From: an uncultured Chryseobacterium sp.
Lineage (GTDB): Bacteria > Bacteroidota > Bacteroidia > Palsa-965
Length of the DNA: 60,654 bases
Direction: 5' to 3'
NCBI GenBank assembly: GCA_964447465.1
Contig: CAYUTR010000001.1
Span: forward strand, 1-60,654
The notes beneath the pieces are model-generated. The model did not search any database. It was given only the letters and a program-made list of their open reading frames with translations, and was not told where the DNA came from. Both the position numbers and the translations under genes were made by a program. Below are positions 34,605-55,518 of this stretch, piece after piece. Positions within the stretch are counted from its first letter, which is position 1, and every line of letters begins with the position of its first letter.

Positions 34605-34635
34605 AAAAAAACCGCACAGAGGCGGTTTCTTTTGC
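34605..34635. terminator. bidirectional rho-independent terminator between convergent genes
   Basis: AAAAAAAACCGC-ACAGAG-GCGGTTTCTTTT: an A-tract, a 6-bp GC-rich stem, then a T-tract. Confidence 0.65.
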
Positions 34636-34646
34636 TTTGGCGGCAT

Positions 34647-42200: not shown

Positions 42201-42445
42201 TGTTTTTTTCCGGCGACCGAAAAAGGTTGGCAAGGGAAACCGCCTGTGAGGATGTCAATTTTACCCCTGAAAGGTCTTCCCTTAAAGTCTCGTATGTCTT
42301 CAAATCGTTTCGCATCTGGAAAGTTTTTTTCAAGCACTTCTAAACACCATTTATCATTCTCCACCTGGAAAACAGTTTCAATCCCAACGTTCTTCGCGGC
42401 TAGATCGAATCCACCAATACCGGCAAACAGGCTTCCGAGCTTCAT
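36230..42445 (-). CDS. giant fusion: DNA C5-cytosine methyltransferase + N6-adenine methyltransferase + strawberry-notch-like SF2 helicase + ~600-aa unknown C-terminus
   Basis: C5-MTase motifs FAGIGGFD (I), GGFPCQPFS (IV), GENV (VI), RRDRVWI (VIII), GNAIVPQV (X). N6-MTase FEPCAGNG and ANPPLG (residues ~430-495). Helicase GDQTGIGKGRVAAAII (Walker A), IMDEAHNASG (DEAH), LYLSATFA, LLINQSGSTGASAHA, EVQKRGRVNRTGQ (motif VI), resembling strawberry notch. Confidence 0.8.
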   Translation of the reverse strand: MKLGSLFAGIGGFDLAAKNVGIETVFQVENDKWCLEVLEKNFPDAKRFEDIRDFKGRPFRGKIDILTGGFPCQPFSVAGKKQGKKDLRFLWPEMLRVIREVRPRFIIGENVSGIINLALDQVLSQLENEGYTTETFVIPACAKDAPHRRDRVWILAYTNGNAVREKRKRHGGQGWRNTKEMEPDSFSSKDWKKNTAKPYAVRSVLSDTYRIRTQVPAKGKFATKQIALRNGAKGSYKTETSKWPTEPGVGRVADGIPRRLDRLKGLGNAIVPQVAEEIFRILLRFAPTQSKTLNGMETGEDNDALEGLSLEKLKQEHREFVEFVINDLEKRNVRSRLYYENVAEDFEIADKNLINELTELAVTICARELAHQEKTYRNRYDELISLYSSQLNLFHPTGQSKLLGQQSTPAPISFLAGIITGADMYGSIFEPCAGNGLLTIASSPDKTIVNEVDKLRVQHLRTQGYFRVTSQDATKPFIGLDKKFACVLANPPLGKMDHAVRYGDYEIKSLEHIMVLNALECMHDLGNAAIILGGHTSYDGKGRISKGANRTFLDYLYKHYRVIDIIPIDKQLYSSHGSGVDARLILISKRQRIFDATAPAFSEKLDTPIRDFDELYKRVMRHRNFMVPAHYLSLTEWIRWQTTLHSEDSVPPTKKEFTEQHRNFVKMAIDERIELPYDVRISYPDLFRNIKVDKSEKDFEDDASSILNLLDDDDTKPKQEQKSTWEEKPADDHKRSTPKKHFNEAIAVHDFLHRKERAQNYKIIFKLNTPPYSQFVAFKAFHSDYLAQRWADSELRHSFKDNFGNNVVVQSIQSLDQPENLNGLGATYVPTSQGCVVLDTVVPDAMSFETHQALQKVNDAIGGDIDEFVRNRLGYGSKKELCAALAAEQIDAVAIAIYNIEAREQGAIEGDQTGIGKGRVAAAIIRYGVKRGYQPIFLTEKPNLFSDLYRDLKAIGSGSLRPFIVNAKDDKTDILDEYGETMYEALSQKEQAEIFDDAEIPAQFNFLLATYSQFSSNELSAKQRFLNAVANKNILIMDEAHNASGEGNTGAFFQRLISHCKGVLYLSATFAKKPANLPLYARKTLMSESNMNREQLVWAIRAGGVPLQEVISSELVKEGQMVRRERSYEGVEVNYITLDEMEDEHRAIADTVTQVLRDTIRFQEDFVSKEVKRLDDELAEANVNVELRKGTKQAGVSNDPYFSRVFNVINQMLFSIKADAVAERAIMRLKEGKKPVIAFSSTMAAFIESMTNEDGEPVKAGDVIAADFSEVLKRGLSSIMRYTLTLPNGRVEQRTFTAKELGPQAELAYWNIIEKIETVSTGISISPIDVIVKKIREAGYSVAEVTGRRISVELNEVKTESGIEFSSTAEDEFPGIDLEEAFGKRTKLMGRIHPRKKILTNEAFRKFNNNEIDVLLINQSGSTGASAHAIVTDKVPFEEVKQRVMIVLQPELDISTEVQKRGRVNRTGQVYKPIYDYVSSAIPAEKRLMMMLQRKLKSLDANTTSNQKQSTRILDVPDFLNKYGDLVVTEYMVDHPEINDALQDPLGLKEKEKEGKEPKELKRGKDDAAFMVSGRVAVLSSKEQQDFYDEVVRRYNDHVEYMKQTGEYDLEVEEMKLDAETKQRKVLIMGRGGRSSFGKDSVLETVEVNVLRKPMKADELGVMLRQSLDGLSATEQSRMLLDEFKTASQKMLDDELLQAKEQYTRSIDELKTSARLKKMLEKHGWEVYERALDKAEAVIKDERKSREEKAQYNYERRNDFAKSTLAFFYVGRLLYYPARTLDEGQIKILAVFIGFGIDRNQKNPFTPSAIKLRFAIASGLRYLVIPASKAETIQRIKGESFDIPQRGFEQVADIWSETTQKRQSDRASRYIITGNILQALGRYRGKLINYTTKDGSVAKGILMPEYWTPDEDAEKGVAVPATKAYSILQSLVEGGHVVIGKHLSLFRRDGRFMVVVSGTKSKGGEIFLNENLLKLIDDNNFSKQSDKMVAYFDSTKLKEVLEILESDLGTSVAVTPLQFDKIYKEFTDKQEQESFPDLEMLPEVVEDETLLERELELEAEAILLMLELDEE

Positions 42446-42450: not shown

Positions 42451-42648
42451 TTATTTATTTTCACGCAACACATTTTCCAAACTATCTGCGCGGTGATGGT
42501 AGTACAACATTTTTTCCACGCACTCCACGCATTCAGGACTCCGATATCCGCCTGATATAATCATGTTCAGCACGAACAGGATACTGCCGATGAAACTCAT
42601 TACCGTTATCCAAAACGAAATCTTAGCACGTTTCTCCTGGGTGAACAT
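42451..42648 (-). CDS. small single-pass membrane protein
   Basis: 65 aa with TM ISFWITVMSFIGSILFVLNMII. Tightly packed between neighbours. Confidence 0.45.
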   Translation of the reverse strand: MFTQEKRAKISFWITVMSFIGSILFVLNMIISGGYRSPECVECVEKMLYYHHRADSLENVLRENK

Positions 42649-42652
42649 GACT

Positions 42653-42973
42653 TCAGGTGTTGTGTGGTTTCTTCAGGTTGTGGGATTTTCTTTTCGGGTC
42701 TTTCAGCAAGCGGAAAATCAGATACGTCCCTGCGTAGCCAGTAAAGAAGGCTTCGAGAAGTCGGTACTTCGGAAAGTATTCGTGAGTCAGGGTAACAGCA
42801 AGTGTCAGGAAGAACAGCGACCAGATCACACCGATCAGGTTTTCGTTGATCCACCTTCTCATGGAAAATTCATTTACACCGATGAGGCGCACAAGTAACA
42901 GACAGATAATACCGATGAAAGCTACAGCCCAATGCAACAGGCCACATGATTCAAGAAAAGTGAGAGTTTTCAT
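42653..42973 (-). CDS. three-TM small membrane protein (holin-like by position)
   Basis: 106 aa, three hydrophobic helices and a basic C-terminus (KDPKRKSHNLKKPHNT), immediately downstream of the lysozyme-like gene. Confidence 0.4.
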   Translation of the reverse strand: MKTLTFLESCGLLHWAVAFIGIICLLLVRLIGVNEFSMRRWINENLIGVIWSLFFLTLAVTLTHEYFPKYRLLEAFFTGYAGTYLIFRLLKDPKRKSHNLKKPHNT

Positions 42974-42993
42974 AGTTAAAATGTTTTTGGGTT

Positions 42994-43719
42994 TTAGGCG
43001 ACTCGCCTTTTGTTTTGATTTTCAGAAATGAAATACACAGCGAGGGTAGTGGCAGCTATTGCACCTCCTGCCAGACTGAGGAGCAGGAATTTTCTTGCGG
43101 CACGTTCAACTATTCGCAAGGTGGCATAGGTGAATTCATTCAGCTCATTAAGGCGATTAAGCCATCCTCGGATGTAAGTTGGATTGTTAAGCGAGATGTA
43201 GAATTGGCGATAGTGCTCGATCAGTTTCTCCTGCACCCGCTTTTCTCCGATTGCGGTCTTGGTGATCTTGTGAAACAGCTCACGGATTTTACCGGCGTTC
43301 TCCAGACTGTAACTGCTTGTGGTGATCGGTAAATTGCTACCGTAGTTTGCGTTCAGAAATTTTGCCAGTTGCCGGTGAGCACCACCGATTCCCGATCCCC
43401 ATGCGAATGAAACGATGATGTCGGCGATGGATTGAGACCGGTAACTATCAAGCAGAAACTTGTCCCAAAATCCGTGCTTGAATATTTTGAGCCATATATG
43501 ATCCGGCATCGAAAAGAAATTTGCACAAGACGGATTGTAACCAAGTTTTGCGTTCATCTCAAACGTTCTGTAAATGATCCCTTTGTTGGTGTGCCAACCG
43601 ACCTGACCATTATAGACACAGGGAGCAGGATAAGAAGCGGGGCCGATGTCACGCGGATCATTGCTCAATCCACCTTCCCACTTCTTAATGAACTCAATTT
43701 GATTTCTGTGATCGGCCAT
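42994..43719 (-). CDS. GH108-like lysozyme (N-acetylmuramidase) with C-terminal membrane anchor
   Basis: IEFIKKWEGGLSNDPRD, HTNKGI and SIADIIVSFAWGSGIGGAHRQL follow the glycoside hydrolase 108 pattern (EGG...D..G.TK.GI...D.AVN.G). C-terminal TM LLLSLAGGAIAATTLAVYFI. Confidence 0.55.
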   Translation of the reverse strand: MADHRNQIEFIKKWEGGLSNDPRDIGPASYPAPCVYNGQVGWHTNKGIIYRTFEMNAKLGYNPSCANFFSMPDHIWLKIFKHGFWDKFLLDSYRSQSIADIIVSFAWGSGIGGAHRQLAKFLNANYGSNLPITTSSYSLENAGKIRELFHKITKTAIGEKRVQEKLIEHYRQFYISLNNPTYIRGWLNRLNELNEFTYATLRIVERAARKFLLLSLAGGAIAATTLAVYFISENQNKRRVA

Positions 43720-43731
43720 TGCTCGCAGTGA

Positions 43732-44790
43732 TTATTTGTCAAACACAATTGCACTTGTCCGCACGTACATGGTGCGATCATCCAGCGTCCGAAAACGCGT
43801 GTATCCATTGCCTGAAGACAACCACCGGCCTAAGAGCGTGAACGATGGAATTTCCACGCTGATATTAAATCCGTCGGTGATAATTGTTTTTGTGATGGTG
43901 CGGATGTTCTTAGTTACAGCACCCAAACCTGAAAGTGCCCATGAAGAATCGTAATTATTCGGATCGCTGTTTTTGACAGTTTCCTTCAATCCCATGCGAC
44001 GGAACTGCTCACGCAACTTCGCTTTATTTGCAGGAGAATTTTTGAACGCATCAAGCAACCCGGTTACGAGTGTGTAGCGACGAATACCGGAATAAGGACG
44101 TAATTGGAAACCTTCGCTGGCGAAACCGTAATCAACCGTGTTATTAACCTTTTGTAGTAGCGCAACCGTTGAGTTTATGTCTGATGCCTTTGCAGTATCA
44201 AAAATCTGCCACCCAATAATGATGTAAGGATTCGTTACCCATGAAGGAATGACAGATTTGATAACGCTGGTGACAAGTCCGGATGATGCAGTTGTTTTCG
44301 GAGGAAGGGAAGTCTTTGCTCCGCCGAAGTTGCCCGTAACGTAATCAGTGAATGTGGTGTTGTCAATTACCGTTTTCAGTCCCTTGCTTGTAAGTGCGGT
44401 CGTTAGCTCCGATCCCCAGATACCATCCGCGCCCCATTTTGGCAAGATGGATGCACCGAATTTTTGCATCAGCGCATTCTGCAAATTCTTCACTTGCTCG
44501 CCGCGACTTCCTTTCTGAATTGGGAAATTAGTGCTGCCGCTGCCAGAGGAGTATCCAGAAGATGGTGGTGCTGAATAAGTCGGTGCAGGTAATTCAGGAA
44601 CAGATCGTGAAGCACTGTCGAAGGCATTTGAATCTCCTTCGTCGCTCTTACCGAATTTTCCACCTTCGTTTCCGTTACTGTTTCTCCTGAATAGCCAAAT
44701 GCCACCGCCGACCAATCCAATACCTGTTGCGGCTATGCTGAGAAGCACCCAACCACGTTTATACCAGGGCTTTTTTTCTTCGTTTGCCAT
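43732..44790 (-). CDS. membrane-anchored peptidoglycan-binding domain protein
   Basis: N-terminal TM WVLLSIAATGIGLVGGGIWLF. IQKGSRGEQVKNLQNALMQKFG...WGADGIWGSELTTAL is PG_binding_1-like. Confidence 0.55.
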   Translation of the reverse strand: MANEEKKPWYKRGWVLLSIAATGIGLVGGGIWLFRRNSNGNEGGKFGKSDEGDSNAFDSASRSVPELPAPTYSAPPSSGYSSGSGSTNFPIQKGSRGEQVKNLQNALMQKFGASILPKWGADGIWGSELTTALTSKGLKTVIDNTTFTDYVTGNFGGAKTSLPPKTTASSGLVTSVIKSVIPSWVTNPYIIIGWQIFDTAKASDINSTVALLQKVNNTVDYGFASEGFQLRPYSGIRRYTLVTGLLDAFKNSPANKAKLREQFRRMGLKETVKNSDPNNYDSSWALSGLGAVTKNIRTITKTIITDGFNISVEIPSFTLLGRWLSSGNGYTRFRTLDDRTMYVRTSAIVFDK

Positions 44791-44801
44791 GTCTGTAATT
44801 T

Positions 44802-45566
44802 TTATGCTGTGATTCCTTTTTTCGATAATTCTTCTCTGAAGTCATAATCACCTGAGCTAACGTCGTCGTCGAGGTCATCAAGGATGTCCGCAGAGTATTT
44901 TGATTCGTAGGCTTGGCTTACATCGTCCCAGGATTTCTGATCCGGGATTTCACGCACTACCTGTTTTATTGCTTCCAAATCGGTTCCCCACATTAATCCC
45001 CACGTTTGAAAATTCACCGCTGCATTTATGCGCTCGGCCCATGCGTAGGGATCGTAGATCGGCTGGCTGTTCTTTCCTGCTTTCTCCGGTTTGATGCGGT
45101 AGATAGCAACCATCTCCTGCATCTCAGTGGATTTCAAATGCTCGTTCAAATCCGCATATAAATCCACTCCGTACTGATTGTGATAATTGGTCACAACCTT
45201 CCTGAACATTGCCTTGTCAGGGATGTCCACGAACGCTGTGCGGATCTGTTGCGTGTTCGTCCCAAGCCAGTTGTCATTGTCAATTCCCATCTTGATTTGC
45301 TGCGCGTAGTATGCTGGTTCACCGGGTTCAAGTGATCCCTTCGCTGCGTGTCTGGAAATAACTTTAGTAACAACCTTGTAACCGAAGTAGCCCACAGTAA
45401 CAACGACCACCGTTCCAACCAGACCCCAAACCACATAAGTTTTGAAGCTGTCAGAGTCGCTGGAACCGGGTTGAACGATATAAGTAGGCTCTCCCGCTTG
45501 ATGTGAAGGAGCGTTCTGCTTATGGCGTTGCCCCTGCCTTGTTGTGCTGTGGGCTACCGTTGTCAT
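44802..45566 (-). CDS. membrane-anchored protein with two annexin-like repeats
   Basis: TM YVVWGLVGTVVVVTVGYFGY. Repeats LGTNTQQIRTAFVDIPDKAMFRKVVTNYHNQYGVDLYADLNEHLKSTE and WGTDLEAIKQVVREIPDQKSWDDVSQAYESKYSADILDDLDDDVSSGDY fit the annexin repeat (GTDE..L..i...R......i...Y...yg..L..dl....SG). Confidence 0.5.
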   Translation of the reverse strand: MTTVAHSTTRQGQRHKQNAPSHQAGEPTYIVQPGSSDSDSFKTYVVWGLVGTVVVVTVGYFGYKVVTKVISRHAAKGSLEPGEPAYYAQQIKMGIDNDNWLGTNTQQIRTAFVDIPDKAMFRKVVTNYHNQYGVDLYADLNEHLKSTEMQEMVAIYRIKPEKAGKNSQPIYDPYAWAERINAAVNFQTWGLMWGTDLEAIKQVVREIPDQKSWDDVSQAYESKYSADILDDLDDDVSSGDYDFREELSKKGITA

Positions 45567-45748
45567 TACAAGCGCATGTATTTGCGTGCTGTGGCGAGTA
45601 CCGAAGGTTCGTAGAGCACGATTTGGCGTAAGCGATCAATCTCTTTTGCTGAGAGCTTTTCTGCGAGAACTTTCAGACCGTTTTCTTTCATCTCGACTTC
45701 TGCATCTGTTGGCGCAGTAATTGAGAAATCAGTTTTTTTAGTTGCCAT
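45566..45748 (-). CDS. small hypothetical protein
   Basis: ORF 45566..45790 trimmed to ATG 45748 (MATKKTDFSI). Overlaps the upstream gene by 11 nt and the downstream start by 1 nt. Confidence 0.4.
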   Translation of the reverse strand: MATKKTDFSITAPTDAEVEMKENGLKVLAEKLSAKEIDRLRQIVLYEPSVLATARKYMRL

Positions 45749-46559
45749 CGTCTTGTGATTTTTCAAATGCGGACATATATGTTGATTCAATCAATTCAGG
45801 ATTCTCTGTAAGCACGGTGAGAAGTTGACTGACAAGACCACGTTGTACCTTGTCGAATCCTTTGAATAGCCCGGTGAAGAATTTGTATTCTTCATATTCG
45901 CGCTCCGAAATGGCTATTTGAGTTTCATCATTACTACTCGCCGAGTTTGCTTCTGCTTTGCGCTCTTCTTGTTGTTCATTTTCTGCTGTGCCTGATAACG
46001 GGCCGTCTTTGGGCTTGGGGCCTAAGAAGCGATCAAGGGCTTCGCGTCCCAATTCAAGCAACACATTCGTTTGCCCGTTTTCGTCTTGCAGCTTTATCAG
46101 TTCCCCATTTTGCTTTTCCAATTCGTCATTTCTTTTAAGGAGGATGTCGAGTTGTTGCCGCAAGATTTGGTTGTCGCGCTGCACCTTGTCGTGATTATGC
46201 TTTAAGGTGACTTGCTCAACTTGCTTTTGTACCCTGTCTTCAAAAGATACTGTGGGGCCTTCTTCAATACCATGAAAAGTTTGACCGTTCAATTGTTTTG
46301 GACCGTCGAAATAAAAACAGGTATTGTTGCGGTTGCGTGTATGGCCGATATATTCAGAAATGGTAATCCACTTTGTTGTCGGCCCAATCAGATCGAAAAT
46401 GCTCTGAAACAAAGTCGCGTCGGTGGTCTTTGGAATTATCTCCAGATCGTCGATAGTGACGGCGTAGGAGATGGGTTCTCCAATGCGAGAGTGGTTCTCC
46501 AATCGAATGCGGATCGCCTCGACTTTTGCGTTGTCGTATGGAATCTTTTGGAAGCTCAT
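45738..46559 (-). CDS. coiled-coil hypothetical protein
   Basis: 273 aa with a central heptad-rich segment (QILRQQLDILLKRNDELEKQNGELIKLQDE) and an acidic region. 4-nt overlap with the upstream gene. Confidence 0.5.
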   Translation of the reverse strand: MSFQKIPYDNAKVEAIRIRLENHSRIGEPISYAVTIDDLEIIPKTTDATLFQSIFDLIGPTTKWITISEYIGHTRNRNNTCFYFDGPKQLNGQTFHGIEEGPTVSFEDRVQKQVEQVTLKHNHDKVQRDNQILRQQLDILLKRNDELEKQNGELIKLQDENGQTNVLLELGREALDRFLGPKPKDGPLSGTAENEQQEERKAEANSASSNDETQIAISEREYEEYKFFTGLFKGFDKVQRGLVSQLLTVLTENPELIESTYMSAFEKSQDDGN

Positions 46560-46888
46560 CTTTTCTGTTTTTTATGCTGTGGAATAACCTGGATAAACAG
46601 CACACTTGCCGTTGCTCCTGTGTCGTTCGATACCCGAATGATTCCGCTATGCTCGTGTTGCTGAATATTTATCACTGCGTCTCCCAGGTTAAAAACCCCT
46701 CGCTCTGATTCCACTTTTATATCCAAAACTTCTGGTTCAATGAACAGCATGAGTTGGTTGTATGCTTTGAAAGTTGTTGCGGCTTTATCAGCAAGTCTTA
46801 TCTGCCGATACCTTACCACATAGCGTTCTCCGAAACCTAACTCCCGCATCCGACGCGGGATATAATCCAAAGCGAAGGCGAGGTTCAT
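46556..46888 (-). CDS. small beta-rich hypothetical protein
   Basis: 110 aa, with 4-nt overlaps on both sides. Confidence 0.45.
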   Translation of the reverse strand: MNLAFALDYIPRRMRELGFGERYVVRYRQIRLADKAATTFKAYNQLMLFIEPEVLDIKVESERGVFNLGDAVINIQQHEHSGIIRVSNDTGATASVLFIQVIPQHKKQKR

Positions 46889-47328
46889 GGCTGTTGCATT
46901 TTTAGGCGGAGATAAATCCGCACGGTGTAGTCAATGTTATCGGTCAGTAGTACACCTACACGATCTTCGTAGTAACCATCTATCAATGTGCTATCAACGG
47001 GTTGGTAAGTGTCAAGCATCTCATAGTTTGTTCTCCACCACCATTGTTGCGTGTCTATATATTTTTCACCGACTTTTTCCCATGCTTCAACTTTGAATGA
47101 AGCGTAAAGTGTGTGAGCAAAAAATCTCTCACCTTTATCGGAAACAAAAAGGCGTAAGTAACCCGCCTCTCGTTGAATCTTAGGTTGACCACCGACATTG
47201 ATAAAGTGTTTGTCGCACGTCACCGCAATCCCGGTAATGCTTTCTGCATTTTCAGGCAGTATAATCTGAAAGAGTTTCTTTTGAAATCTCTCCTTGATCG
47301 ACAACGTATGGACTATGAACTTTTCCAT
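46885..47328 (-). CDS. small beta-rich hypothetical protein (paralogue-like of 47332..47742)
   Basis: ENAESITGIAVTCDKH and YTVRIYLRL echo KNADKIIGVAVSSNRD and MFLYVYSTL of the neighbouring gene. Confidence 0.45.
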   Translation of the reverse strand: MEKFIVHTLSIKERFQKKLFQIILPENAESITGIAVTCDKHFINVGGQPKIQREAGYLRLFVSDKGERFFAHTLYASFKVEAWEKVGEKYIDTQQWWWRTNYEMLDTYQPVDSTLIDGYYEDRVGVLLTDNIDYTVRIYLRLKMQQP

Positions 47329-47331
47329 GAA

Positions 47332-47742
47332 TTATTCAGTTGGTTGCACGGCGAGCGTGCTATACACGTAGAGAAACATTTTGTGCGGGAGAAATTCTAC
47401 CACATCGGCGTTTCCTGAATCGGTGTAGATCATCTCTACTTTACGATTTCCCGGTTCAATTCGCCCTAATCTGTAGTAGCGTTGATTGGGCGGAACGTTA
47501 AGACCGCTCATCAGGTACTTGCTTTCGTAGTTCTCTGGGAAGAATTCTTCGTCGTTAATTTTGATAGCCTGGCTTCCCCGGTAGTATGCGATGTCGTCAC
47601 GATTGGAGCTGACGGCCACACCAATTATTTTGTCGGCGTTTTTGTCCACTTCAAATGATCCTTTATGGACTTCTCCTTCGACAGTTATGTCAAGTGAGAA
47701 AACTTCTTTGATTATTTTATTCTGCTTAGCCATTTTATTCAA
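47332..47742 (-). CDS. small beta-rich hypothetical protein
   Basis: 136 aa. See the paralogue note on 46885..47328. Lies downstream of a strong hairpin. Confidence 0.45.
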   Translation of the reverse strand: MNKMAKQNKIIKEVFSLDITVEGEVHKGSFEVDKNADKIIGVAVSSNRDDIAYYRGSQAIKINDEEFFPENYESKYLMSGLNVPPNQRYYRLGRIEPGNRKVEMIYTDSGNADVVEFLPHKMFLYVYSTLAVQPTE

Positions 47743-47763
47743 GCCTTAGAAAGTTTAAGGAAG

Positions 47764-47796
47764 GGCCGTCCCGTCATTGCGGGACGGCCTTTTTTT
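47764..47796. terminator. strong GC hairpin between 47808..48557 and 47332..47742
   Basis: GGCCGTCCCG-TCATTG-CGGGACGGCC (10-bp perfect stem). The T-tract (TTTTTTT) is on the plus-strand side, so it is a canonical terminator only for antisense (plus) transcription. On the minus strand it could act as an attenuator or stabiliser. Confidence 0.5.
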
Positions 47797-47807
47797 CCTT
47801 CTGCCAG

Positions 47808-48557
47808 TTACGGCGTGGTGATAGTACCGTTCAGCTCAACCATAATGTGAGCGTTAGCGGCTACCCCATCCATCGAACCGAGTTCCACCACAAACTCGAT
47901 AAGTTCCTCATCGCGGATCATGCGTGGGTTATGCAGTTTCCAATAACCCAGGCTAACCGTTTGGTTATTGTCGGTTGCGAAAACCCGGTTGCTTTTACCT
48001 TCAGGAATAATCTGACGCTTGTTGGCTTTCAGATAAAATTCCCCGTTGGCAATTGCAGGAACCGCTTTGATGCTGCCGAAGTCGATGACTTTGATCTTGT
48101 CATCGGTAAGGTCTGCCGCAGTTCCTACAAGCATTGTGATTGAACTCACCAGGAGAACCATTCCTTTCGGAAGTTTTCCCTGTGCAATCGAAGTCCCTCC
48201 GGTTACTTTTGCATCACTGGTCTCAAAAATTTTAACCGTTTTGCTCGTAACACGCTTCACACCACGAATGTTGTAATCCGCAAGGCGAAGTTTTCCGGCG
48301 ATAACTTCTTCCCGGATTCCATCAGGAAGCTCTTTGAAGTGCTTCTCGAATTCCGCACGGGAACCAATTGAAGGCGGCAAACTTTTCGCTACGCGGGCCA
48401 CCGCTTGCGCCTTCTGGATCGGATTCAGGCCCGACAGGTAAGACAGGAATCCTCCGCCAAGTCCGGCGTCGATACCAAGCAGCTCACCTGCATTGTTGTA
48501 CTCGGCGAGTACATTCTCCCAATTCTCGTTCATTGTTGAAACGATTAGGAGTTGCAT
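47808..48557 (-). CDS. hypothetical protein, beta-rich C-terminal half (candidate structural protein)
   Basis: 249 aa, with an alternative ATG at 48533 (MNENWENV). No family recognised. Position before the strong hairpin suggests high expression. Confidence 0.45.
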   Translation of the reverse strand: MQLLIVSTMNENWENVLAEYNNAGELLGIDAGLGGGFLSYLSGLNPIQKAQAVARVAKSLPPSIGSRAEFEKHFKELPDGIREEVIAGKLRLADYNIRGVKRVTSKTVKIFETSDAKVTGGTSIAQGKLPKGMVLLVSSITMLVGTAADLTDDKIKVIDFGSIKAVPAIANGEFYLKANKRQIIPEGKSNRVFATDNNQTVSLGYWKLHNPRMIRDEELIEFVVELGSMDGVAANAHIMVELNGTITTP

Positions 48558-48618
48558 CCGGACCTCGCTTTTTGGGTGCGGGCCTTATTGGATGCTCAAC
48601 TGTTTTTTCTGTCAGTTA

Positions 48619-49236
48619 TCAGATGATGTGAGGCAGTTCATCAAGTTCTACCCCGACACCGTTCACCGGCGCGTAAGCTCCACCGTCGGCAGCAGTCCTG
48701 TTCTTGGCTTCGTATTCGATACCATCGGAAAGGATTTGCTGATCGAAGGAAGTAAGCCTGTCGAGCGTTGCTTTTTCTACTCCCGGATCAAGTCCGTTCA
48801 CAGTAGGTGTGTCGGTTTCTTCTGCGGGTGCATCAGCAGGTTTGTTCTTACCCATGAATTTGTTGATGAAGAACTTTTCTTTAAGCATTTCGATATAGTC
48901 CTTCGACCGTGCTTTTCCTGCTTCGTACTCTGCTTTGAGACTGAAACCGGAATCCGCTGCTACCCGTAGTGAAGATTGTGTATCACATGGAGCGGCAATA
49001 CATCCGATTCCCAACGCTGAAAGCCACCGTTGACCTGTTGCGTGTCCAACAACGCTGAGTGTCAAACCAACAGGTATAGACCATTTTCCCAGAAATGAAC
49101 CCCCATAGCCACCGCCTACACCAGCACCTACATCAACCAGGGTGTTGGTGGCCACTTCAGTCCAGTCCTTTGTTTTCGGTTTTATCACCGCTGCTTTCCA
49201 CGGCTCTTTGGTCAGCAGTTTCTTGGCACTTTGCAT
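48619..49236 (-). CDS. glycine-zipper membrane-associated hypothetical protein
   Basis: VDVGAGVGGGYGGSFLGKWSIPVGLTLSVVGHATG hydrophobic/glycine-rich segment. Confidence 0.45.
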   Translation of the reverse strand: MQSAKKLLTKEPWKAAVIKPKTKDWTEVATNTLVDVGAGVGGGYGGSFLGKWSIPVGLTLSVVGHATGQRWLSALGIGCIAAPCDTQSSLRVAADSGFSLKAEYEAGKARSKDYIEMLKEKFFINKFMGKNKPADAPAEETDTPTVNGLDPGVEKATLDRLTSFDQQILSDGIEYEAKNRTAADGGAYAPVNGVGVELDELPHII

Positions 49237-49271
49237 TTTCGTTTCTTTTATGTTTTTCTTGGGGTTGGAGC

Positions 49272-51065
49272 TTATTTCAGGCGGCTCAACCTTAAATCCC
49301 GCAGGATTTTGTCACCTTTATTTCCTTTGCTTTTCTTGCTCTGGTCATTGATTTGTCCACGAGCAGCCTTAGGAATACCATTTGTGGTTTCCGCCCTGCT
49401 ACCACCGTTGCCTTTGCCTTTCTTCTTAGCGAAAAACTTTTTGTAAACGATCACACCTCCGACAACTGCGGCAACTGTAACAGTTCCGATAATCAATGGT
49501 TTTTTGTTTTTGACCATCCAATCCTTCGCCTTATCAAAAAACGAGGCTTCTGAATCTGGAGCAGGGTCGCCTCCCGATTGATCTCCATCTGAACTATCAG
49601 CGGAAGGTTCATCTTCATTCCGTTCAGTGCTGTAATCACCCTGATCTTCTCCGCTCGGTGCGGTTTCATCCGGTGCGGAATCTCCAGCTTGTTGGTCGAG
49701 TGCATCCATTCCAGCGTCGGAGCCTGGTTCACCTTTGCCAAACAGATCTCCGATGTTTTTCAAGATGCCAGCAATCGTTGCCAGAAGACCGCTTGCTACA
49801 GCTGTAACAGCGGCAGTTTCTACAATACCCAAGCCGTGCAACTCAGCGGACTTTTCTTCGGGAATTTCATCGGAGTACATCTGTGATCCGATGATCTGTT
49901 CCACCGTATTGTTTCCCGTCATTCCCAAGCCAGAGAGAGCATACCCGGAGAGGGTAACTTTATTATCCTGGTTGCCTTTTCCTGTAAGAATTGCTTCCTT
50001 CAGGTTTTCAGGTTTGCCCCCGGCGTTGAAAAATATTTTCTCCAGTTTAGCGCGTAACTTTTTGTAACGCTCAAAACGTTTTGGGTTTACTCCACGTTTC
50101 TGTGCTTCTGCATCGGTTAAATAACCATAGCGAAGCTGACCAGCCACACCAAAAAGATTTAGTTTCATCCCTGCCAGCAGACCAAGCCGCAATGCAGTCG
50201 TAGCCGGATTGATTCGGTTAATGACGTGAACACCTTTGCTGATTACCGTCCCGACCTTCCTCACCGTTTCTTTCACGTTCTCTTTGATGTTCTGTGTCGC
50301 GGTCTTGACGTTCTCCTTCACGGTTTGCACTTTTTCCTTCACGTTCTGGATTTTCTCCTTCACGTTCTGGAACAAGTTCAGTTTACCTACCGATTCATCT
50401 GTTGCCGATGGAAGCTGACAGGAAAGCATATCCTGCGCGTCGATGCTCATGCCGCCATTGCGAGCGAATTCATCAGGATCAATGCCATCTAAAAACTCCA
50501 AATCCATGTCTATGTTTTTTATTTTTACATACGGGTGCTCGCGGTTGAAGTAGGGTAGTACAGCGTCAATAGTGATCTCCTTCCCACCGGAAGGAACAAC
50601 TACGTACACATGCCCATAACTTCCGGACACTTCGTCGTATGATGCAATTCTGAATTGGTGCGGAATCCTCAATACAGAGAGAACACAGCTTGTGAAAAAA
50701 CTAAAGCAATCACAGTCTCCGATCCGATCACTCCAAAGTCTGCGTACACTTCTTACCTGTTCCTTGCCCGTCTGATCGGGATTATATGCAATGTGATCGG
50801 TAAGGAATTTCCAGATGTTATAGCACGTATCTCCAACCTTGTTATCAATGTTGCGCATTGCCGCCGCAATCCTCTGCGCCTGGAACTTGTAATCGCGCAC
50901 CTTGGACGGGAGCATCTTCATTGTGTCAGCGAGCGTTGCGCCTTTCTTTATGGATTCATTTATTCCGGATGCCGGATCGAATAAACAATTGTAGGCAGCA
51001 CCATCTTCCTTGATGCCCCTTTGTTCACCTGTCCCGTCTTTTTTTATACCACTCAGGAATTCCAT
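49272..51065 (-). CDS. transglutaminase-like cysteine protease domain protein with heptad-repeat region and C-terminal TM/basic tail
   Basis: ORF 49272..51101 trimmed to ATG 51065 (MEFLSGIKK), which removes the overlap with the upstream gene. RIGDCDCFSFFTSCVL...GHVYVVV...IDAV is a Cys-His-Asp transglutaminase core. NVKEKIQNVKEKVQTVKENVK heptads. TM LIIGTVTVAAVVGGVIVY. Confidence 0.55.
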   Translation of the reverse strand: MEFLSGIKKDGTGEQRGIKEDGAAYNCLFDPASGINESIKKGATLADTMKMLPSKVRDYKFQAQRIAAAMRNIDNKVGDTCYNIWKFLTDHIAYNPDQTGKEQVRSVRRLWSDRIGDCDCFSFFTSCVLSVLRIPHQFRIASYDEVSGSYGHVYVVVPSGGKEITIDAVLPYFNREHPYVKIKNIDMDLEFLDGIDPDEFARNGGMSIDAQDMLSCQLPSATDESVGKLNLFQNVKEKIQNVKEKVQTVKENVKTATQNIKENVKETVRKVGTVISKGVHVINRINPATTALRLGLLAGMKLNLFGVAGQLRYGYLTDAEAQKRGVNPKRFERYKKLRAKLEKIFFNAGGKPENLKEAILTGKGNQDNKVTLSGYALSGLGMTGNNTVEQIIGSQMYSDEIPEEKSAELHGLGIVETAAVTAVASGLLATIAGILKNIGDLFGKGEPGSDAGMDALDQQAGDSAPDETAPSGEDQGDYSTERNEDEPSADSSDGDQSGGDPAPDSEASFFDKAKDWMVKNKKPLIIGTVTVAAVVGGVIVYKKFFAKKKGKGNGGSRAETTNGIPKAARGQINDQSKKSKGNKGDKILRDLRLSRLK

Positions 51066-51069
51066 GACT

Positions 51070-51531
51070 TCACAGATTGATTGTTTGTTCGTAAGGCACA
51101 CTTACAATTTGTCCTGCTACTTCAACCGGTACAGTTGCCCGCACCAGAATTGGAGCGGAGCCTTGTTGCGTTTGCAGAATATGAAAGAGGTCAACTGCCA
51201 GAGTAGGCAGGGAAAAAATGCTGACTTCAACCATGATCTCTTTCAAATTCATTTGCTGAAATGGGTCAAGCGTGTAATCGAAATTTTCCACGTTGGATGT
51301 TCCGATAATCTGCTTTTTATATTCCAGCGTTACCAATGGGTGCTTGAACTTGTAGGCATTCTTAGTGGGATTTTTAACCGTTGCCACCACCGCGATGGTA
51401 AGTTTGCTGAAACTGAGTTTATGAACCCGTCCGCGGGTAGAAACAATGAGTTTGTCGCTACCCTTCGCCCAACCAACTGCTTTGCCAATCAACAAAGCCG
51501 CCGCACCGATGCCGATAATTTCAAGTATCAT
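51070..51531 (-). CDS. membrane-anchored LEA_2/WHy-like beta-sandwich protein (tentative)
   Basis: N-terminal TM ILEIIGIGAAALLIGKAVGW followed by a ~120-aa beta-rich domain (TIAVVATVKNPTKNAYKFKHPLVTLEY) that resembles LEA14/NDR1-type folds. Confidence 0.35.
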   Translation of the reverse strand: MILEIIGIGAAALLIGKAVGWAKGSDKLIVSTRGRVHKLSFSKLTIAVVATVKNPTKNAYKFKHPLVTLEYKKQIIGTSNVENFDYTLDPFQQMNLKEIMVEVSIFSLPTLAVDLFHILQTQQGSAPILVRATVPVEVAGQIVSVPYEQTINL

Positions 51532-51800
51532 GGCTTTACGTTTTCTAATTTGTCGCAGCGTGAGGAGAGTCTCCTAACCTGTCGTTGTAAATAACCAACC
51601 CGATGGTCAATGGTATGATCAAAATTTTGGGAGAGGGAAACGTGCGTGTTGTGTTCTGAATAAAGTGTATTAACACGCTCTACCATCTGTTTGAAATCCT
51701 TATGCAAGTCCTTCAGGAAGTACCCGATAATCAAAAACATCACGCTCAAAAAGGAAAGCAGAACGCTGTTTACGATGAGAAGAATTTGAACCTTGTCCAT
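51528..51800 (-). CDS. small single-pass membrane protein
   Basis: ORF 51528..51869 trimmed to ATG 51800 (MDKVQILLIVNSVLLSFLSVMFLIIGYF). Confidence 0.4.
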   Translation of the reverse strand: MDKVQILLIVNSVLLSFLSVMFLIIGYFLKDLHKDFKQMVERVNTLYSEHNTHVSLSQNFDHTIDHRVGYLQRQVRRLSSRCDKLENVKP

Positions 51801-51940
51801 AATTGAGTATTTTATTTGTAGGCCTTGATGCAGATTGCTATTACTCTTATTACGCCCTATTAAATGCACCGTTATCGGTATAGTAGAGGACTGTTTTGAA
51901 ATGATGGATTATGTAGAGGAATGTTGAATTGCATAGCAAA

Positions 51941-52147
51941 TCACATTTTCTTATTTCCTCTCAGAATGTTCCAGATCCGTTTCAAGTCGTCTTTAGTATG
52001 CTCACAGTATTCTTCAATGAGCAGATTCTTTTTCCCCTCTACTATCGCCTGGCGAATAGACAGGTGGGTTCTGGCTGCAGAACTGTAATCCTGACCGGTG
52101 AGCTTCATCAGATCATGGATGGTCATATAGAAAGCATTGCCTTTCAT
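51941..52147 (-). CDS. small HTH DNA-binding protein (Bacteroidota mobile-element type)
   Basis: MTIHDLMKLTGQDYSSAARTHLSIRQAI...IEEYCEHT resembles the short HTH proteins found beside integrases of Bacteroidota elements (I.DIq.LtG.S.rtA.r....Ik......it..EFceY). Confidence 0.45.
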   Translation of the reverse strand: MKGNAFYMTIHDLMKLTGQDYSSAARTHLSIRQAIVEGKKNLLIEEYCEHTKDDLKRIWNILRGNKKM

Positions 52148-52158
52148 AGTCAGTTCGG

Positions 52159-52611
52159 TTAGAGTTGGTTGATGTCAGGAGGGCTAGGCAAGTGCCTCTT
52201 TCTTAGTTGAACCGGTTTAATGCGGCCACGGTCCCGATGTTCACCCATTTTCAGGATGTAACAAACACAATCAAGTATCCCGTTCAGCTCCAGTAGCACA
52301 AGGGCATTTCCCAGGATCAATTTGTGGTCACATAGTTGTATGGCTCTTAATAATTGCCCTTCTGTCCACGAATATTCTTCAGTAAGGCCTTCGAGAGACT
52401 TGACAGCGTTGAATTCCTCTAGGAAACCAGGGTACGCTTTCCTGATTGCCTTCTTGATTTTAACATGGCAGATGTATGGACTGATAATTTCTCTCCTATC
52501 GAAAGGTTCAGGGTTTATCTCAGGTGAATCATCCTCGCATCCATCTTCACTGATGAAATAATTTTCTCTGAAAATTTCCCATTTCTCGTTTTTGTTTTTT
52601 GAGGTTTCCAT
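52159..52611 (-). CDS. hypothetical protein
   Basis: 150-aa ORF, co-directional with its neighbours. No motif recognised. Confidence 0.4.
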   Translation of the reverse strand: METSKNKNEKWEIFRENYFISEDGCEDDSPEINPEPFDRREIISPYICHVKIKKAIRKAYPGFLEEFNAVKSLEGLTEEYSWTEGQLLRAIQLCDHKLILGNALVLLELNGILDCVCYILKMGEHRDRGRIKPVQLRKRHLPSPPDINQL

Positions 52612-52624
52612 TGCTCTAAATTGT

Positions 52625-52894
52625 TTAGTGAGTTTTTGTAATGTGTTTCATTAAAAACCTGTTGATGCTTTGCCGGGAATACTTGATAATTCTCCCGTGC
52701 TGACTGAACAAGATTTCTCCGGAATCGCGCAACTGTTGCAGCTTCGATTTGCTTTTGATTCCTAAGAGTTGTTTGGCGTCCTCTGGCGACAGCCATTCTT
52801 CCTGCTTGACTTCTGCTATGGCATCCATCAGCATTTTCCGAAACTCCAGCACTAGTTGCTGGTATGCTTCATCCTGGAACACGATCAGTTTCAT
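52625..52894 (-). CDS. excisionase-family HTH (HTH_17/MerR-like) protein
   Basis: WLSPEDAKQLLGIKSKSKLQQLRDSGEILFSQHGRIIKYSRQSINRFL is the typical helix-turn-helix plus wing of Xis-type proteins. First gene of the long minus-strand block. Confidence 0.55.
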   Translation of the reverse strand: MKLIVFQDEAYQQLVLEFRKMLMDAIAEVKQEEWLSPEDAKQLLGIKSKSKLQQLRDSGEILFSQHGRIIKYSRQSINRFLMKHITKTH

Positions 52895-55404: not shown

Positions 55405-55518
55405 ATTGTAAAGGCTCAAACAATCTCTGAAAAGCCTTAACCGCCCGAAACCCTGATTTTATTCAGAAATTCGCACTTTAGAAGATTTTAGGAAGTATCA
55501 AAAGACTTGAAATTCTGT

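What the first reader, a model, noticed from the sequence alone, without database searches (positions are those of the whole stretch)
42451..52894. 10.4-kb block of 18 co-directional small ORFs, half membrane-anchored, with cell-wall and membrane-interacting domains but no tailed-phage hallmarks
The genes are tightly packed with many 1-11-nt overlaps, and all are on the minus strand. By eye, nine have TM or glycine-zipper segments. The recognisable domains are a GH108-like lysozyme with a C-terminal anchor, an anchored PG_binding_1 protein, an anchored two-repeat annexin-like protein, a transglutaminase-like protease with a heptad region, and a possible LEA_2-like anchored beta-sandwich. There are also several small beta-rich proteins. 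I found no terminase, portal, tail, relaxase, coupling protein or Tra-type genes anywhere in the element. Its means of transfer or packaging is therefore unexplained. The composition is compatible with an envelope-spanning apparatus or with a membrane-containing tailless virus-like particle, but neither is demonstrated.
Basis: inference. Interest (0 to 1): 0.6.

Follow-up and report, generated by a model that had tools for sequence, protein, structure and literature searches.

The report
Tailless membrane-phage provirus in Bacteroidota
The 18-gene block is most likely the particle-building and cell-lysis module of an integrated, tailless, membrane-containing phage distantly related to the orphan Salisaeta phage SSIP-1, which would tie that lone isolate to a widespread family of hidden proviruses in Bacteroidota.

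Summary
There are 18 tightly packed minus-strand ORFs, nine of them with TM or glycine-zipper segments, and no tailed-phage or conjugation hallmark anywhere in the element.

The block is the conserved core of a 40.3-kb element that split a tRNA-Val gene. It is intact, syntenic and under purifying selection in many Bacteroidota genomes, including two more copies in this genome.

- **Capsid candidates.** The most conserved gene, 47808-48557, models confidently as a helical arm plus one jelly-roll. Its best fold matches are viral capsid proteins. Two paralogous small jelly-roll genes follow it.
- **Capsid-ATPase linkage.** This ATPase co-occurs with the capsid-like gene in 6 of the 7 carrier genomes among 401 sampled, and in none of the other 394.
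- **Lysis end.** The block ends in a swappable, membrane-anchored peptidoglycan-hydrolase slot and two small TM proteins.

Best reading (about 0.7): the morphogenesis and lysis module of a temperate SSIP-1-like virus. No virion has been seen.

The parts
15188..15233 (+). attL: 5' half of the disrupted host tRNA-Val(UAC), acceptor arm GGGAGCT
   Evidence: Sequence read directly. It pairs with the 3' half at 55513-55552. The repeat was found.
15333..15408 (+). Complete replacement tRNA-Val(UAC) carried by the element
   Evidence: ARAGORN. Its acceptor arms GGGGGCT/AGCCCCC are self-consistent and differ from the split gene.
15409..34646 (.). Variable cargo half of the element: T9SS-sorted secreted proteins, a 527-aa helical protein, a PRTase-CE/NADAR pair and others
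   Evidence: Pfam. This region is not conserved in distant relatives.
34647..36212 (-). g20: 521-aa protein with a C-terminal RadA/Sms-like RecA-family ATPase. It is a homologue of SSIP-1 gp40 and the candidate genome-packaging ATPase.
   Evidence: phrog_6891 E 7e-15. Profile A3 against PDB RadA 5lkm, E 1.8e-4. A3 against SSIP-1 gp40, 57 bits, E 5e-18. Conserved next to the giant gene in 5 of 5 related records. Co-occurs with g08.
36230..42445 (-). g19: 2071-aa polyvalent protein (C5 DNA methylase plus strawberry-notch-type helicase). Probably an anti-restriction protein, possibly packaged in the virion.
   Evidence: Pfam DNA_methylase 4e-47, AAA_34 and Helicase_C_4 about 1e-18. Relatives carry RadC, LPD1 or D12 MTase versions. 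SSIP-1 has a 2319-aa virion protein with a ParB-like domain beside gp40.
42451..42973 (-). g18 (65 aa, 1 TM) and g17 (106 aa, 2 TM): holin-like small membrane proteins
   Evidence: Hydropathy. Their position after the peptidoglycan hydrolase is conserved in L002.
42994..43719 (-). g16: GH108 lysozyme with a C-terminal TM anchor, in a swappable hydrolase slot
   Evidence: Pfam 2e-9, phrog_315 2e-17. TM at residues 213-231. The same slot holds Amidase_2 plus Glucosaminidase in L009. In element C8 it holds a glucosaminidase with a C-terminal TM.
43732..44790 (-). g15: N-terminally anchored protein with an endolysin-type cell-wall-binding region
   Evidence: phrog_1493 E 2.4e-5, residues 63-131. 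TM at 15-33. Conserved in all distant loci.
44802..45566 (-). g14: membrane-anchored annexin-repeat protein
   Evidence: Pfam Annexin 26.8 bits. The homologue in L007 also carries a weak Annexin hit. TM at 41-59.
45566..46559 (-). g13 (about 60 aa) and g12 (273 aa, net charge -15, central coiled coil): scaffold-like or assembly candidates
   Evidence: Conserved position and alignment in 7 loci. Charge. The function is inferred.
46556..46888 (-). g11: 110-aa conserved small protein with a basic C-terminus
   Evidence: Conserved in all loci at 29-72% identity.
46885..47742 (-). g10 (147 aa) and g09 (133-136 aa): paralogous small jelly-roll proteins, candidates for a second capsomer subunit, penton or spike
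   Evidence: g09 AF2 model pLDDT 80, an eight-strand sandwich. Foldseek gives only generic jelly-roll matches. hhalign g09 against g10: probability 82%, E 1e-5 over 113 columns. g10 is the most divergent gene and has variable insertions.
47764..47789 (-). GC-rich hairpin directly after g08
   Evidence: -26.8 kcal/mol, z -3.95. A strong hairpin is present at the same position, with different sequence, in L002, L003, L004, L007 (with a U-tract) and L009; L008 has only a weak one (z -1.62).
47808..48557 (-). g08: candidate major capsid protein, with an N-terminal helical arm (about 90 aa) and one jelly-roll
   Evidence: AF2 pLDDT 87, pTM 0.81. Foldseek PDB top hits: EhV-201 capsid 1.4e-4 and SPV1 MCP 4.9e-4, then FLiP penton and iridovirus/Faustovirus/PBCV MCPs. 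BFVD hits are capsid proteins down to 1e-5. It is the most conserved structural gene of the block: 52% identity where neighbours are 25-40%, dN/dS 0.054. 533 clusters at 50% identity.
48619..49236 (-). g07: glycine-zipper membrane protein with an acidic tail
   Evidence: Alignment of 7 homologues.
49272..51101 (-). g06: 609-aa protein with a Cys-His-Asp domain (homologue of SSIP-1 virion protein gp34), a heptad array, two TM segments and a basic tail
   Evidence: Profile A4 against SSIP-1 gp34: 46 bits, E 7e-15. blastp 34% over 93 aa. In the reverse search, SSIP-1 gp34 against the whole 5-Mb genome hits only the three g06-family genes. Invariant DCD, H and D. 21-nt repeats.
51070..51869 (-). 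g05 (153 aa) and g04 (about 92 aa): N-terminally anchored small membrane proteins
   Evidence: Hydropathy. g05 is conserved in all distant loci.
51941..52894 (-). g03, g02 and g01: early or regulatory genes. g01 is an HTH_17 (excisionase-type) protein.
   Evidence: Pfam HTH_17 4e-8. 89-99% identical to L002, whereas the structural genes are 45-88%.
53969..55327 (-). Tyrosine integrase
   Evidence: Pfam Phage_integrase, Arm-DNA-bind_5, Phage_int_SAM_5.
55513..55552 (+). attR: 3' half of the disrupted host tRNA-Val, acceptor arm AGCTCCC
   Evidence: Sequence read directly. The arm-type repeat TGTRCATACTTTGTACATAC lies inside both ends.

Best explanation
The block is the virion-morphogenesis and lysis module of a temperate, tailless, membrane-containing dsDNA phage. 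The provirus is 40.3 kb (about 15234-55519) and is integrated into a tRNA-Val gene.

Proposed working, shown or inferred step by step:
1. The tyrosine integrase and the HTH_17 protein mediate integration and excision at the split tRNA (anatomy shown, activity inferred).
2. After induction, the long minus-strand operon is read. A conserved hairpin after g08 raises the relative yield of g08 (hairpin shown, effect inferred).
3. g08 is a helical arm plus a jelly-roll. Together with the paralogous jelly-roll proteins g09 and g10 it forms the icosahedral shell (folds predicted, role inferred).
4. The nine membrane proteins populate an internal lipid vesicle derived from the host membrane. They include g06, which shares its Cys-His domain with SSIP-1 virion protein gp34, and the anchored annexin-like, wall-binding and GH108 proteins. 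These serve assembly and wall penetration at entry (inferred by analogy with PRD1, PM2 and SSIP-1).
5. The RadA-like ATPase g20, homologous to SSIP-1 gp40, packages the genome (homology shown, role inferred).
6. The giant methylase-helicase g19 protects incoming DNA from restriction and may travel in the particle, as does the giant ParB-domain virion protein of SSIP-1 (inferred).
7. The hydrolase and the small TM proteins g17 and g18 release progeny by lysis (inferred).
For: **Core of the element, not cargo**
- The same gene order recurs with different integrases, lysins and cargo in 9 fetched loci from other genomes and assemblies (L001-L009), in a further metagenome assembly (L026-L028), and in two further elements of this genome.
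- All frames are intact. dN is far below dS, with g08 dN/dS 0.054.

**Capsid-like folds**
- g08 gives a confident model whose top PDB and BFVD matches are viral capsid proteins.
- g09 is a jelly-roll-type eight-strand sandwich, and g10 is its paralogue.
- g08 is the most conserved structural gene of the block and is followed by a strong hairpin at the same position in most relatives (L008 has only a weak one).

**Link to SSIP-1**
- The g06 family matches SSIP-1 structural protein gp34 (46 bits). The g20 family matches SSIP-1 structural protein gp40 (57 bits).
- In the reverse search of the SSIP-1 proteome against this 5-Mb genome, gp34 hits exactly the three g06-family genes. gp40 hits g20-type ATPases: one in element C4, one elsewhere on contig C4 and one on contig C12. 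It does not reach the window's own g20 at E 0.01.
- gp40 is the predicted packaging ATPase of SSIP-1 (PMC4124505).
- SSIP-1 is tailless, has an internal membrane and a 44-kb circular dsDNA genome, and is thought to have two single-beta-barrel MCPs (PMC6260650, PMC4958249, PMC5332951).

**Capsid-ATPase linkage**
- Among 401 Bacteroidota genomes, strong g20-family hits occur in 6, all among the 7 that carry g08, mostly 9-18 kb away (33-41 kb in one genome).

**Lysis-type end**
- Non-orthologous peptidoglycan hydrolases fill the same slot, followed by small TM proteins.

**Other support**
- The genome size of 40 kb is close to SSIP-1's 43.8 kb.
- Two relatives are in IMG/VR.
- An ImmA/IrrE-HTH regulator lies upstream in L009.
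Against: - No virion, induction or excised circle has been observed.
- Foldseek TM-scores for g08 are low (0.2-0.44) and E-values moderate (1e-4 to 1e-5). Non-viral jelly-rolls (Ena3A, BclA, TNF-like) also appear among the hits.
- g09 has only generic beta-sandwich matches (E 7.6e-3 or worse).
- None of the jelly-roll proteins shows sequence similarity to any SSIP-1 protein. Only two genes link the two genomes.
- The ATPase is RadA/Sms-like, a family normally involved in recombination and replication. It could be a replication helicase. Its packaging role is only predicted in SSIP-1 itself.
- About half of the element is accessory cargo, which is more typical of genomic islands.
- IMG/VR membership is a classifier call, not independent evidence.
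Confidence: 0.7

Rival explanations
1. This is a non-viral transfer device. The membrane proteins, annexin-like protein and wall hydrolases load the excised element into membrane vesicles, or form a new conjugation-like envelope complex. The jelly-roll proteins act as adhesins or a fibre rather than a capsid.
For: Nine membrane proteins. A membrane-binding annexin-type repeat. Large variable cargo as in islands. Polyvalent proteins also occur in conjugative elements (LPD1 in C8). Ena pilus subunits appear among the g08 and g09 fold matches.
Against: No relaxase, coupling protein, VirB4-type ATPase or any T4SS family, and no further P-loop. Two core proteins are homologous to virion proteins of a real icosahedral phage. 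The top fold matches are capsid proteins. The lysis-type end of the operon implies release by lysis.
Confidence: 0.12
2. This is a domesticated or defective derivative of such a virus, for example a particle-forming bacteriocin, a gene-transfer-agent-like system or a satellite. It keeps the structural genes but no longer spreads as an autonomous virus.
For: No free viral genome or isolate with these genes exists in 50,697 phage records. All copies seen are chromosomal or of unknown topology. The element carries heavy cargo.
Against: Integrase, excisionase-type HTH, att halves and a replacement tRNA are intact. Several divergent copies sit in one genome (three here, three in G368), and the modules are mosaic. 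These point to active horizontal spread. Distribution is patchy: 7 of 401 genomes and 7 of 180 genera.
Confidence: 0.1
3. This is an ordinary tailed prophage or conjugative element whose hallmark genes are too divergent to detect, or a decayed remnant.
For: Most proteins have no family assignment, so absence of hits is weak evidence on its own.
Against: Every ORF of 90 aa or more in the 40-kb element was scanned. No ORF has the size or P-loop of a terminase. There is no long tail or tape-measure gene. All 18 genes are intact and under purifying selection in relatives. The predicted folds are jelly-rolls, not HK97.
Confidence: 0.03
4. This is a cell-envelope accessory operon carried as cargo (envelope remodelling or defence) with no role in the element's own propagation.
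For: Wall-active and membrane proteins could serve host physiology.
Against: The block is the invariant part of the element family, while the cargo varies. There are no PADLOC hits. It is linked to an SSIP-1-type ATPase and to integrases.
Confidence: 0.05

Closest known systems
[quoted passage not shown]
   Same: Homologous Cys-His-domain protein (g06 and virion protein gp34). Homologous RadA-like ATPase (g20 and gp40, the predicted packaging ATPase). A giant polyvalent-type protein gene beside the ATPase. Genome size about 40-44 kb. Many small membrane proteins. Host in the Bacteroidota/Rhodothermota group.
   Different: SSIP-1 was isolated as a free phage from a hypersaline site, whereas this element is integrated with an integrase. 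Only two genes are detectably shared. No sequence link exists between the jelly-roll candidates here and any SSIP-1 structural protein. The gene order differs: in SSIP-1 the ATPase lies in the middle of the structural genes. The giant proteins carry different domains (ParB-like against methylase plus Sno helicase).
Vertical single-beta-barrel viruses (Sphaerolipoviridae, Matsushitaviridae: P23-77, IN93, SH1, HHIV-2)
   Same: Tailless, with an internal membrane. Adjacent genes for two or more small single-jelly-roll capsid proteins. Temperate members exist (IN93, SNJ1).
   Different: Those viruses have an FtsK/HerA-type packaging ATPase next to the MCP genes and genomes of 17-31 kb. Here the only candidate ATPase is RadA/Sms-like and lies beyond the giant gene. 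There is no sequence similarity.
Portogloboviridae (Sulfolobus polyhedral virus 1)
   Same: The g08 model matches SPV1 MCP VP4 (6oj0_A, E 4.9e-4). The g09 model weakly matches a second SPV1 chain (6oj0_Z). Both have single-jelly-roll shell proteins and an enveloped core.
   Different: SPV1 has an archaeal host and a 20-kb genome, and no shared genes. The similarity is in fold only, with low TM-scores.
Tectiviridae and Corticoviridae (PRD1, PM2) and Finnlakeviridae (FLiP, PhiCjT23)
   Same: An operon of many small membrane proteins, virion-associated wall hydrolases and a tailless icosahedral design. FLiP and PhiCjT23 infect Flavobacterium. The FLiP penton is among the g08 fold matches.
   Different: Those viruses have a double-jelly-roll MCP, and genomes of 9-15 kb. 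PRD1 and PM2 use an FtsK/HerA ATPase. FLiP has ssDNA with a rolling-circle Rep. None of these features is present here.

Membership tests
SSIP-1-like tailless internal-membrane phages | Homologue of SSIP-1 virion protein gp34 | tested here: met
   Profile A4 against gp34: 46 bits, E 7e-15. blastp 34% over 93 aa. The reverse tblastn hits only the g06-family genes in the 5-Mb genome.
SSIP-1-like tailless internal-membrane phages | Homologue of SSIP-1 gp40 (virion protein, predicted packaging ATPase) | tested here: met
   Profile A3 against gp40: 57 bits, E 5e-18. Both best match RadA/Sms 5lkm. The predicted role comes from PMC4124505.
SSIP-1-like tailless internal-membrane phages | Two major capsid proteins with single vertical beta-barrels | tested here: inconclusive
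   g08 and g09 model as jelly-rolls and g10 is a paralogue of g09. No similarity to any SSIP-1 protein was found, and the folds of the SSIP-1 MCPs are not solved.
SSIP-1-like tailless internal-membrane phages | Icosahedral virion with an internal lipid membrane | not testable with these tools
   Only indirect evidence: nine predicted membrane proteins.
SSIP-1-like tailless internal-membrane phages | dsDNA genome of about 44 kb | tested here: met
   40.3 kb between the two tRNA-Val halves. SSIP-1 is 43,788 bp.
Caudoviricetes (tailed prophage) | Terminase large subunit, portal, HK97-fold capsid protein and tail genes | tested here: not met
   No such Pfam, PHROG or NCBIfam hit in any element ORF. 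The two modelled proteins are jelly-rolls. No P-loop was found outside g19 and g20.
Conjugative or mobilisable element (T4SS, CTnDOT-type) | Relaxase, coupling protein, VirB4/TraG ATPase and Tra membrane proteins | tested here: not met
   No Pfam or NCBIfam hits. No Walker A motifs. g08 is absent from 72,556 plasmids.
Bamfordvirae (double-jelly-roll viruses: Tectiviridae, Corticoviridae, Autolykiviridae, FLiP) | [quoted passage not shown] | tested here: not met
   g08 has one beta-sandwich of about 160 aa. The listed full-length family members are about 190-280 aa.
Varidnaviria in general | FtsK/HerA (A32-type) packaging ATPase | tested here: not met
   The only candidate ATPase is RadA/Sms-like. 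No other P-loop protein was found.
Anti-phage defence system | Match to a known or candidate defence protein family | tested here: not met
   PADLOC: no family for 9 of 10 core proteins, and only two sub-threshold hits for g06.

The most novel reading that the evidence does not exclude
SSIP-1 and this provirus family form a separate, so far unnamed lineage of bacterial membrane-containing viruses, widespread in Bacteroidota. Its shell is built from a set of single-jelly-roll paralogues. Its genome is packaged by a RadA/Sms-type RecA-family hexameric ATPase rather than the FtsK/HerA ATPase that defines Varidnaviria. If so, the morphogenetic module was assembled independently and would sit at or near realm level.
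Probability: 0.3. Interest if true: 0.85.

Novelty: new variant of a known kind. Interest (0 to 1): 0.68.

Why it matters
**An orphan phage gains relatives.** SSIP-1 has been a genomic orphan since 2012: one isolate from a hypersaline pond, with almost no database relatives and no family assignment. This finding gives it relatives. They form a family of integrated elements with at least 533 sequence clusters of the capsid-like protein. They occur in about 2% of sampled Bacteroidota genomes, including cultured non-halophiles (sources name Lishizhenia tianjinensis and Parvicella tangerina).

**Open questions become testable.**
- What the SSIP-1-type capsid proteins look like.
- Whether a RadA-like ATPase can act as a packaging motor.
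- How common tailless temperate phages are outside Vibrio and Thermus.

**A gap in annotation.** Standard phage family libraries (Pfam, PHROGs, NCBIfam) and GenBank phage records find no viral hallmark in these 40-50-kb proviruses. Yet they carry defence systems, secreted proteases and a spare tRNA into their hosts.

Tried and rejected
**Searches that found nothing**
- Megablast of the block against phages.
- tblastn of g08 and g06 against 50,697 phage records, and of g08 against PLSDB plasmids.
- NCBIfam on ten proteins.
- PADLOC on ten core proteins, which gave only two sub-threshold hits for g06.
- Sequence and profile searches of g06 against PDB, so 'transglutaminase-like' rests only on the conserved Cys/His/Asp pattern.
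- hmmsearch and hhalign of the g05, g07, g08, g09, g10, g11 and g12 profiles against SSIP-1 proteins.

**Tests that were uninformative**
- I looked for a discrete 40-kb replicon among metagenome contigs carrying identical g08 homologues. Contig lengths vary from 1.4 to 42 kb, so the test says nothing.
- IMG/VR lists both related contigs as linear.

- The original SSIP-1 paper is not held.

**Ideas rejected**
- The Charybdis elements (4.6 kb, archaeal) are unrelated.
- The 'decayed remnant' idea is rejected by intact frames and low dN/dS.

Full report
**1. The observation**

Between 42451 and 52894 there are 18 co-directional minus-strand ORFs. Spacers are short and several junctions overlap by 1-4 nt.

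A hydropathy scan finds TM segments in g04, g05, g06 (two), g14, g15, g16 (C-terminal), g17 (two) and g18. g07 has a glycine-zipper stretch.

The domain calls fare as follows:
- GH108 is solid (Pfam E 2e-9; PHROG endolysin 2e-17).
- Annexin just passes Pfam's threshold.
- The 'PG_binding_1' protein matches only the wall-binding part of PHROG endolysin families (E 2.4e-5).
- 'Transglutaminase-like' has no Pfam or PDB sequence support, although D-C-D, H and D are invariant in the family.
- 'LEA_2-like' has no family support.

No terminase, portal, tail, relaxase, coupling-protein or Tra family is found in any ORF of the element by Pfam, PHROGs or NCBIfam. Six-frame translation of the element shows no canonical Walker A motif inside a real ORF.

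**2. The setting**

The block lies in a 40.3-kb insertion.
- A tRNA-Val(UAC) gene is split. Its 5' half is at 15188-15233 (acceptor GGGAGCT) and its 3' half is at about 55513-55552 (AGCTCCC).
- The element carries its own complete tRNA-Val at 15333-15408.
- A repeat, TGTRCATACTTTGTACATAC, lies inside both ends.
- A tyrosine integrase (53969-55327) sits at the right end. An HTH_17 excisionase-type gene is the first gene of the block.
- Directly downstream of the block, on the same strand, lie a 2071-aa C5-methylase plus strawberry-notch-type helicase (36230-42445) and a 521-aa ATPase (34647-36212).
- The remaining 19 kb is cargo: T9SS-sorted proteins, a PRTase-CE/NADAR pair and others.

Earlier notes of this scan reached the same boundaries.

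**3. The block is the core of an element family, not cargo and not a remnant**

- The 249-aa protein g08 has 170 close homologues, all unnamed and all from Bacteroidota sources.
- A profile search of 1.84 billion representatives finds 533 clusters; the full-length members listed are about 190-280 aa.
- Nine fetched loci from other genomes and assemblies (L001-L009), including two IMG/VR contigs, show the same gene order, as does a further metagenome assembly (L026-L028). That order is g05, g06, g07, g08, g09, g10, g11, g12, g13, g14, g15, a hydrolase slot, small TM proteins, then a giant Sno-type helicase protein.
- The g20 ATPase follows the giant gene in five of five records searched.
- This genome holds two more, divergent copies of the block, on contigs C4 and C8. 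Their neighbours differ.
- All frames are intact.
- Against the nearest relative, dS is saturated for most genes and dN stays low. g08 has dN/dS 0.054.
- The integrase-to-g03 segment is 87-99% identical to that relative, but the structural genes are only 45-88% identical. This is the mosaic pattern typical of phages.
- In a sample of 401 Bacteroidota genomes, 7 carry the family, spread over 7 of 180 genera.

**4. Folds**

- With a 69-sequence alignment, g08 models at pLDDT 87 and pTM 0.81. It has about 90 residues of helices followed by an eight-strand beta-sandwich.
- Foldseek against the PDB ranks the EhV-201 capsid protein (E 1.4e-4) and the Sulfolobus polyhedral virus 1 major capsid protein (4.9e-4) first. 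The FLiP penton, a Helicobacter phage cement protein and iridovirus, Faustovirus and PBCV capsid proteins follow.
- Non-viral jelly-rolls (Ena3A, BclA, TNF-like) are interspersed and TM-scores are low, at 0.2-0.44.
- The viral library gives 30 matches below 1e-3; many are unnamed, and the named ones are largely capsid proteins.
- g09 models at pLDDT 80 as an eight-strand sandwich. Its matches are only generic jelly-rolls (E 7.6e-3 or worse).
- Profile comparison shows g09 and g10 are paralogues (82%, E 1e-5 over 113 columns). There is a weak signal between the g08 sandwich and g09 (21%, E 1e-3).
- g08 is the most conserved structural gene of the block. It is followed by a strong hairpin at the same position, with unrelated sequence, in most relatives, and in L007 the hairpin is a canonical terminator; L008 has only a weak one. 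This fits a product needed in excess.
- g10 is the most divergent gene and carries variable insertions, as expected for an exposed, host-recognising protein.

**5. The link to a real virus**

No protein of the block matches any of 50,697 GenBank phage records by tblastn. Direct comparison with Salisaeta icosahedral phage 1 (JN880423) is positive for two core proteins.
- The g06-family profile matches gp34, annotated as a structural protein, at 46 bits (E 7e-15 in that proteome). The match covers the invariant DCD and H positions.
- The g20-family profile matches gp40, also a structural protein, at 57 bits (E 5e-18).
- In the reverse search of the SSIP-1 proteome against this whole 5-Mb genome, gp34 hits exactly the three g06-family genes.
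- In that same search, gp40 hits g20-type ATPases: one in element C4, one elsewhere on contig C4 and one on contig C12. It does not reach the window's own g20 at E 0.01.
- gp40 is the predicted packaging ATPase of SSIP-1 (PMC4124505). Like the g20 family, it best matches bacterial RadA/Sms among solved structures.

What is known about SSIP-1:
- It is a tailless icosahedral phage with an internal membrane, T=49 and 44 kb of circular dsDNA.
- It is grouped with the 'vertical single beta-barrel, two-MCP' viruses.
- It is unclassified and has almost no database relatives (PMC6356626, PMC6260650, PMC4958249, PMC5332951).
- Next to gp40 it encodes a 2319-aa virion protein with a ParB-like domain. 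That is a polyvalent-type giant protein, paralleling g19 here.

Among the 401 sampled genomes, strong g20-family hits occur in six. All six are among the seven g08 carriers, mostly 9-18 kb from g08 and 33-41 kb away in one genome. The capsid-like gene and the ATPase therefore behave as a linked pair.

**6. The end of the operon looks like a lysis and entry cassette**

- Here the slot holds a GH108 enzyme with a C-terminal TM anchor.
- In L009 the same slot holds Amidase_2 plus Glucosaminidase.
- In this genome's C8 element it holds a glucosaminidase that again has a C-terminal TM anchor.
- One to three small TM proteins follow.

The enzyme is swapped while the anchor is kept. This suggests a membrane-bound wall hydrolase, as in virion-associated lysins of PRD1-type phages. 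That comparison rests on established knowledge summarised in PMC6356626.

**7. Interpretation**

The best-supported reading is that the block is the morphogenesis and lysis module of a temperate, tailless, membrane-containing phage distantly related to SSIP-1.

- Shown: the anatomy, conservation, purifying selection, predicted folds, the two homologies to SSIP-1 virion proteins, and the capsid-ATPase linkage.
- Inferred: that g08, g09 and g10 form the shell; that the membrane proteins sit in an internal vesicle; that g20 packages DNA; that g19 is delivered with the genome; and that particles are made at all.

I put this reading at about 0.7. The rivals are:
- a vesicle-based or otherwise new non-viral transfer device (0.12)
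- a domesticated or defective derivative (0.10)
- an envelope cargo operon (0.05)
- a missed tailed phage or conjugative element (0.03).

The main weaknesses are these:
- The fold scores are modest.
- No detectable similarity links the jelly-roll proteins to SSIP-1 proteins.
- A RadA-like ATPase could be a replication enzyme.
- Half of the element is cargo.
- There is no experimental or read-level evidence.

**8. Comparison and novelty**

- The element fails the tests for Caudoviricetes and for conjugative elements.
- It fails for double-jelly-roll viruses: it has a single jelly-roll and no FtsK/HerA ATPase.
- It resembles Sphaerolipoviridae-type viruses in design but not in its ATPase.
- It meets two gene-level criteria for kinship with SSIP-1.

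I found no paper in the held library describing SSIP-1-like proviruses in Bacteroidota. I therefore rate it a new variant of a known kind.

The more radical reading is that SSIP-1 and these proviruses form a separate lineage with a RadA-type packaging motor, outside the FtsK/HerA-defined Varidnaviria. The evidence does not exclude it. I give it a probability of about 0.3.

Noticed in passing
window 28300-29883 (-); genome contig C8:16110-17678; L018:9758-11296: A 527-aa all-helical protein with no family hit is conserved at about 40% identity in three different elements. Each time it sits next to large secreted genes, T9SS-sorted in the window. It looks like a portable regulator-plus-secreted-cargo module.
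   Followed up: partly
window 51941-55327 against L002:3040-6424: The integrase, the 269-aa plus-strand gene and g01-g03 are 87-99% identical to a Chryseobacterium-labelled MAG. In g01-g03, where dS was computed, it is 0.27-1.4, whereas it is saturated in most structural genes next door. This indicates recent recombination of the lysogeny module between diverged structural modules.
   Followed up: partly
genome contigs C4:17591-26604 and C8:2085-14853: The same genome holds two more elements of this family. Their g08 homologues are 50% and 30% identical. C4 has a separate D12 methylase plus a g20-like ATPase. C8 has an LPD1-domain protein and no Sno helicase. Contig C12 has a further g20-like ATPase near an integrase-like gene.
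   Followed up: partly
window 42994-43719; C8:5344-6114; L009:14795-15869: The wall-hydrolase slot keeps a C-terminal TM anchor while the catalytic domain changes: GH108 in the window and glucosaminidase in C8. L009 has two soluble-looking enzymes instead (Amidase_2 plus glucosaminidase).
   Followed up: partly
L032 (SSIP-1) 26863-33822: The 2319-aa SSIP-1 virion protein gp43 has a ParB-like domain at residues 1820-1940 (PDB Spo0J/Noc/ParB, E 5e-5). It is therefore a polyvalent-type protein packaged in a tailless phage.
   Followed up: partly
window 50297-50369: Three in-frame 21-nt tandem units encode the NVKEKxQ heptads of g06. The array is absent or shorter in the distant homologues (L003, L004, L008), so the coiled-coil length varies.
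   Followed up: no
phage record LR756504.1:200504-200938: The only GenBank phage record with a tblastn match to g20 at E 1e-3 or better is an unannotated 636-kb uncultured phage (30% over 142 aa).
   Followed up: no
L009:445-1536: An ImmA/IrrE-type metalloprotease fused to an HTH_3 domain lies upstream of the block in an IMG/VR relative. It is a typical damage-responsive induction switch. The window's element has no counterpart detected.
   Followed up: no
window 53170-53979 (+): A 269-aa gene overlaps the integrase stop and faces the block. It has no family hit.
   Followed up: partly
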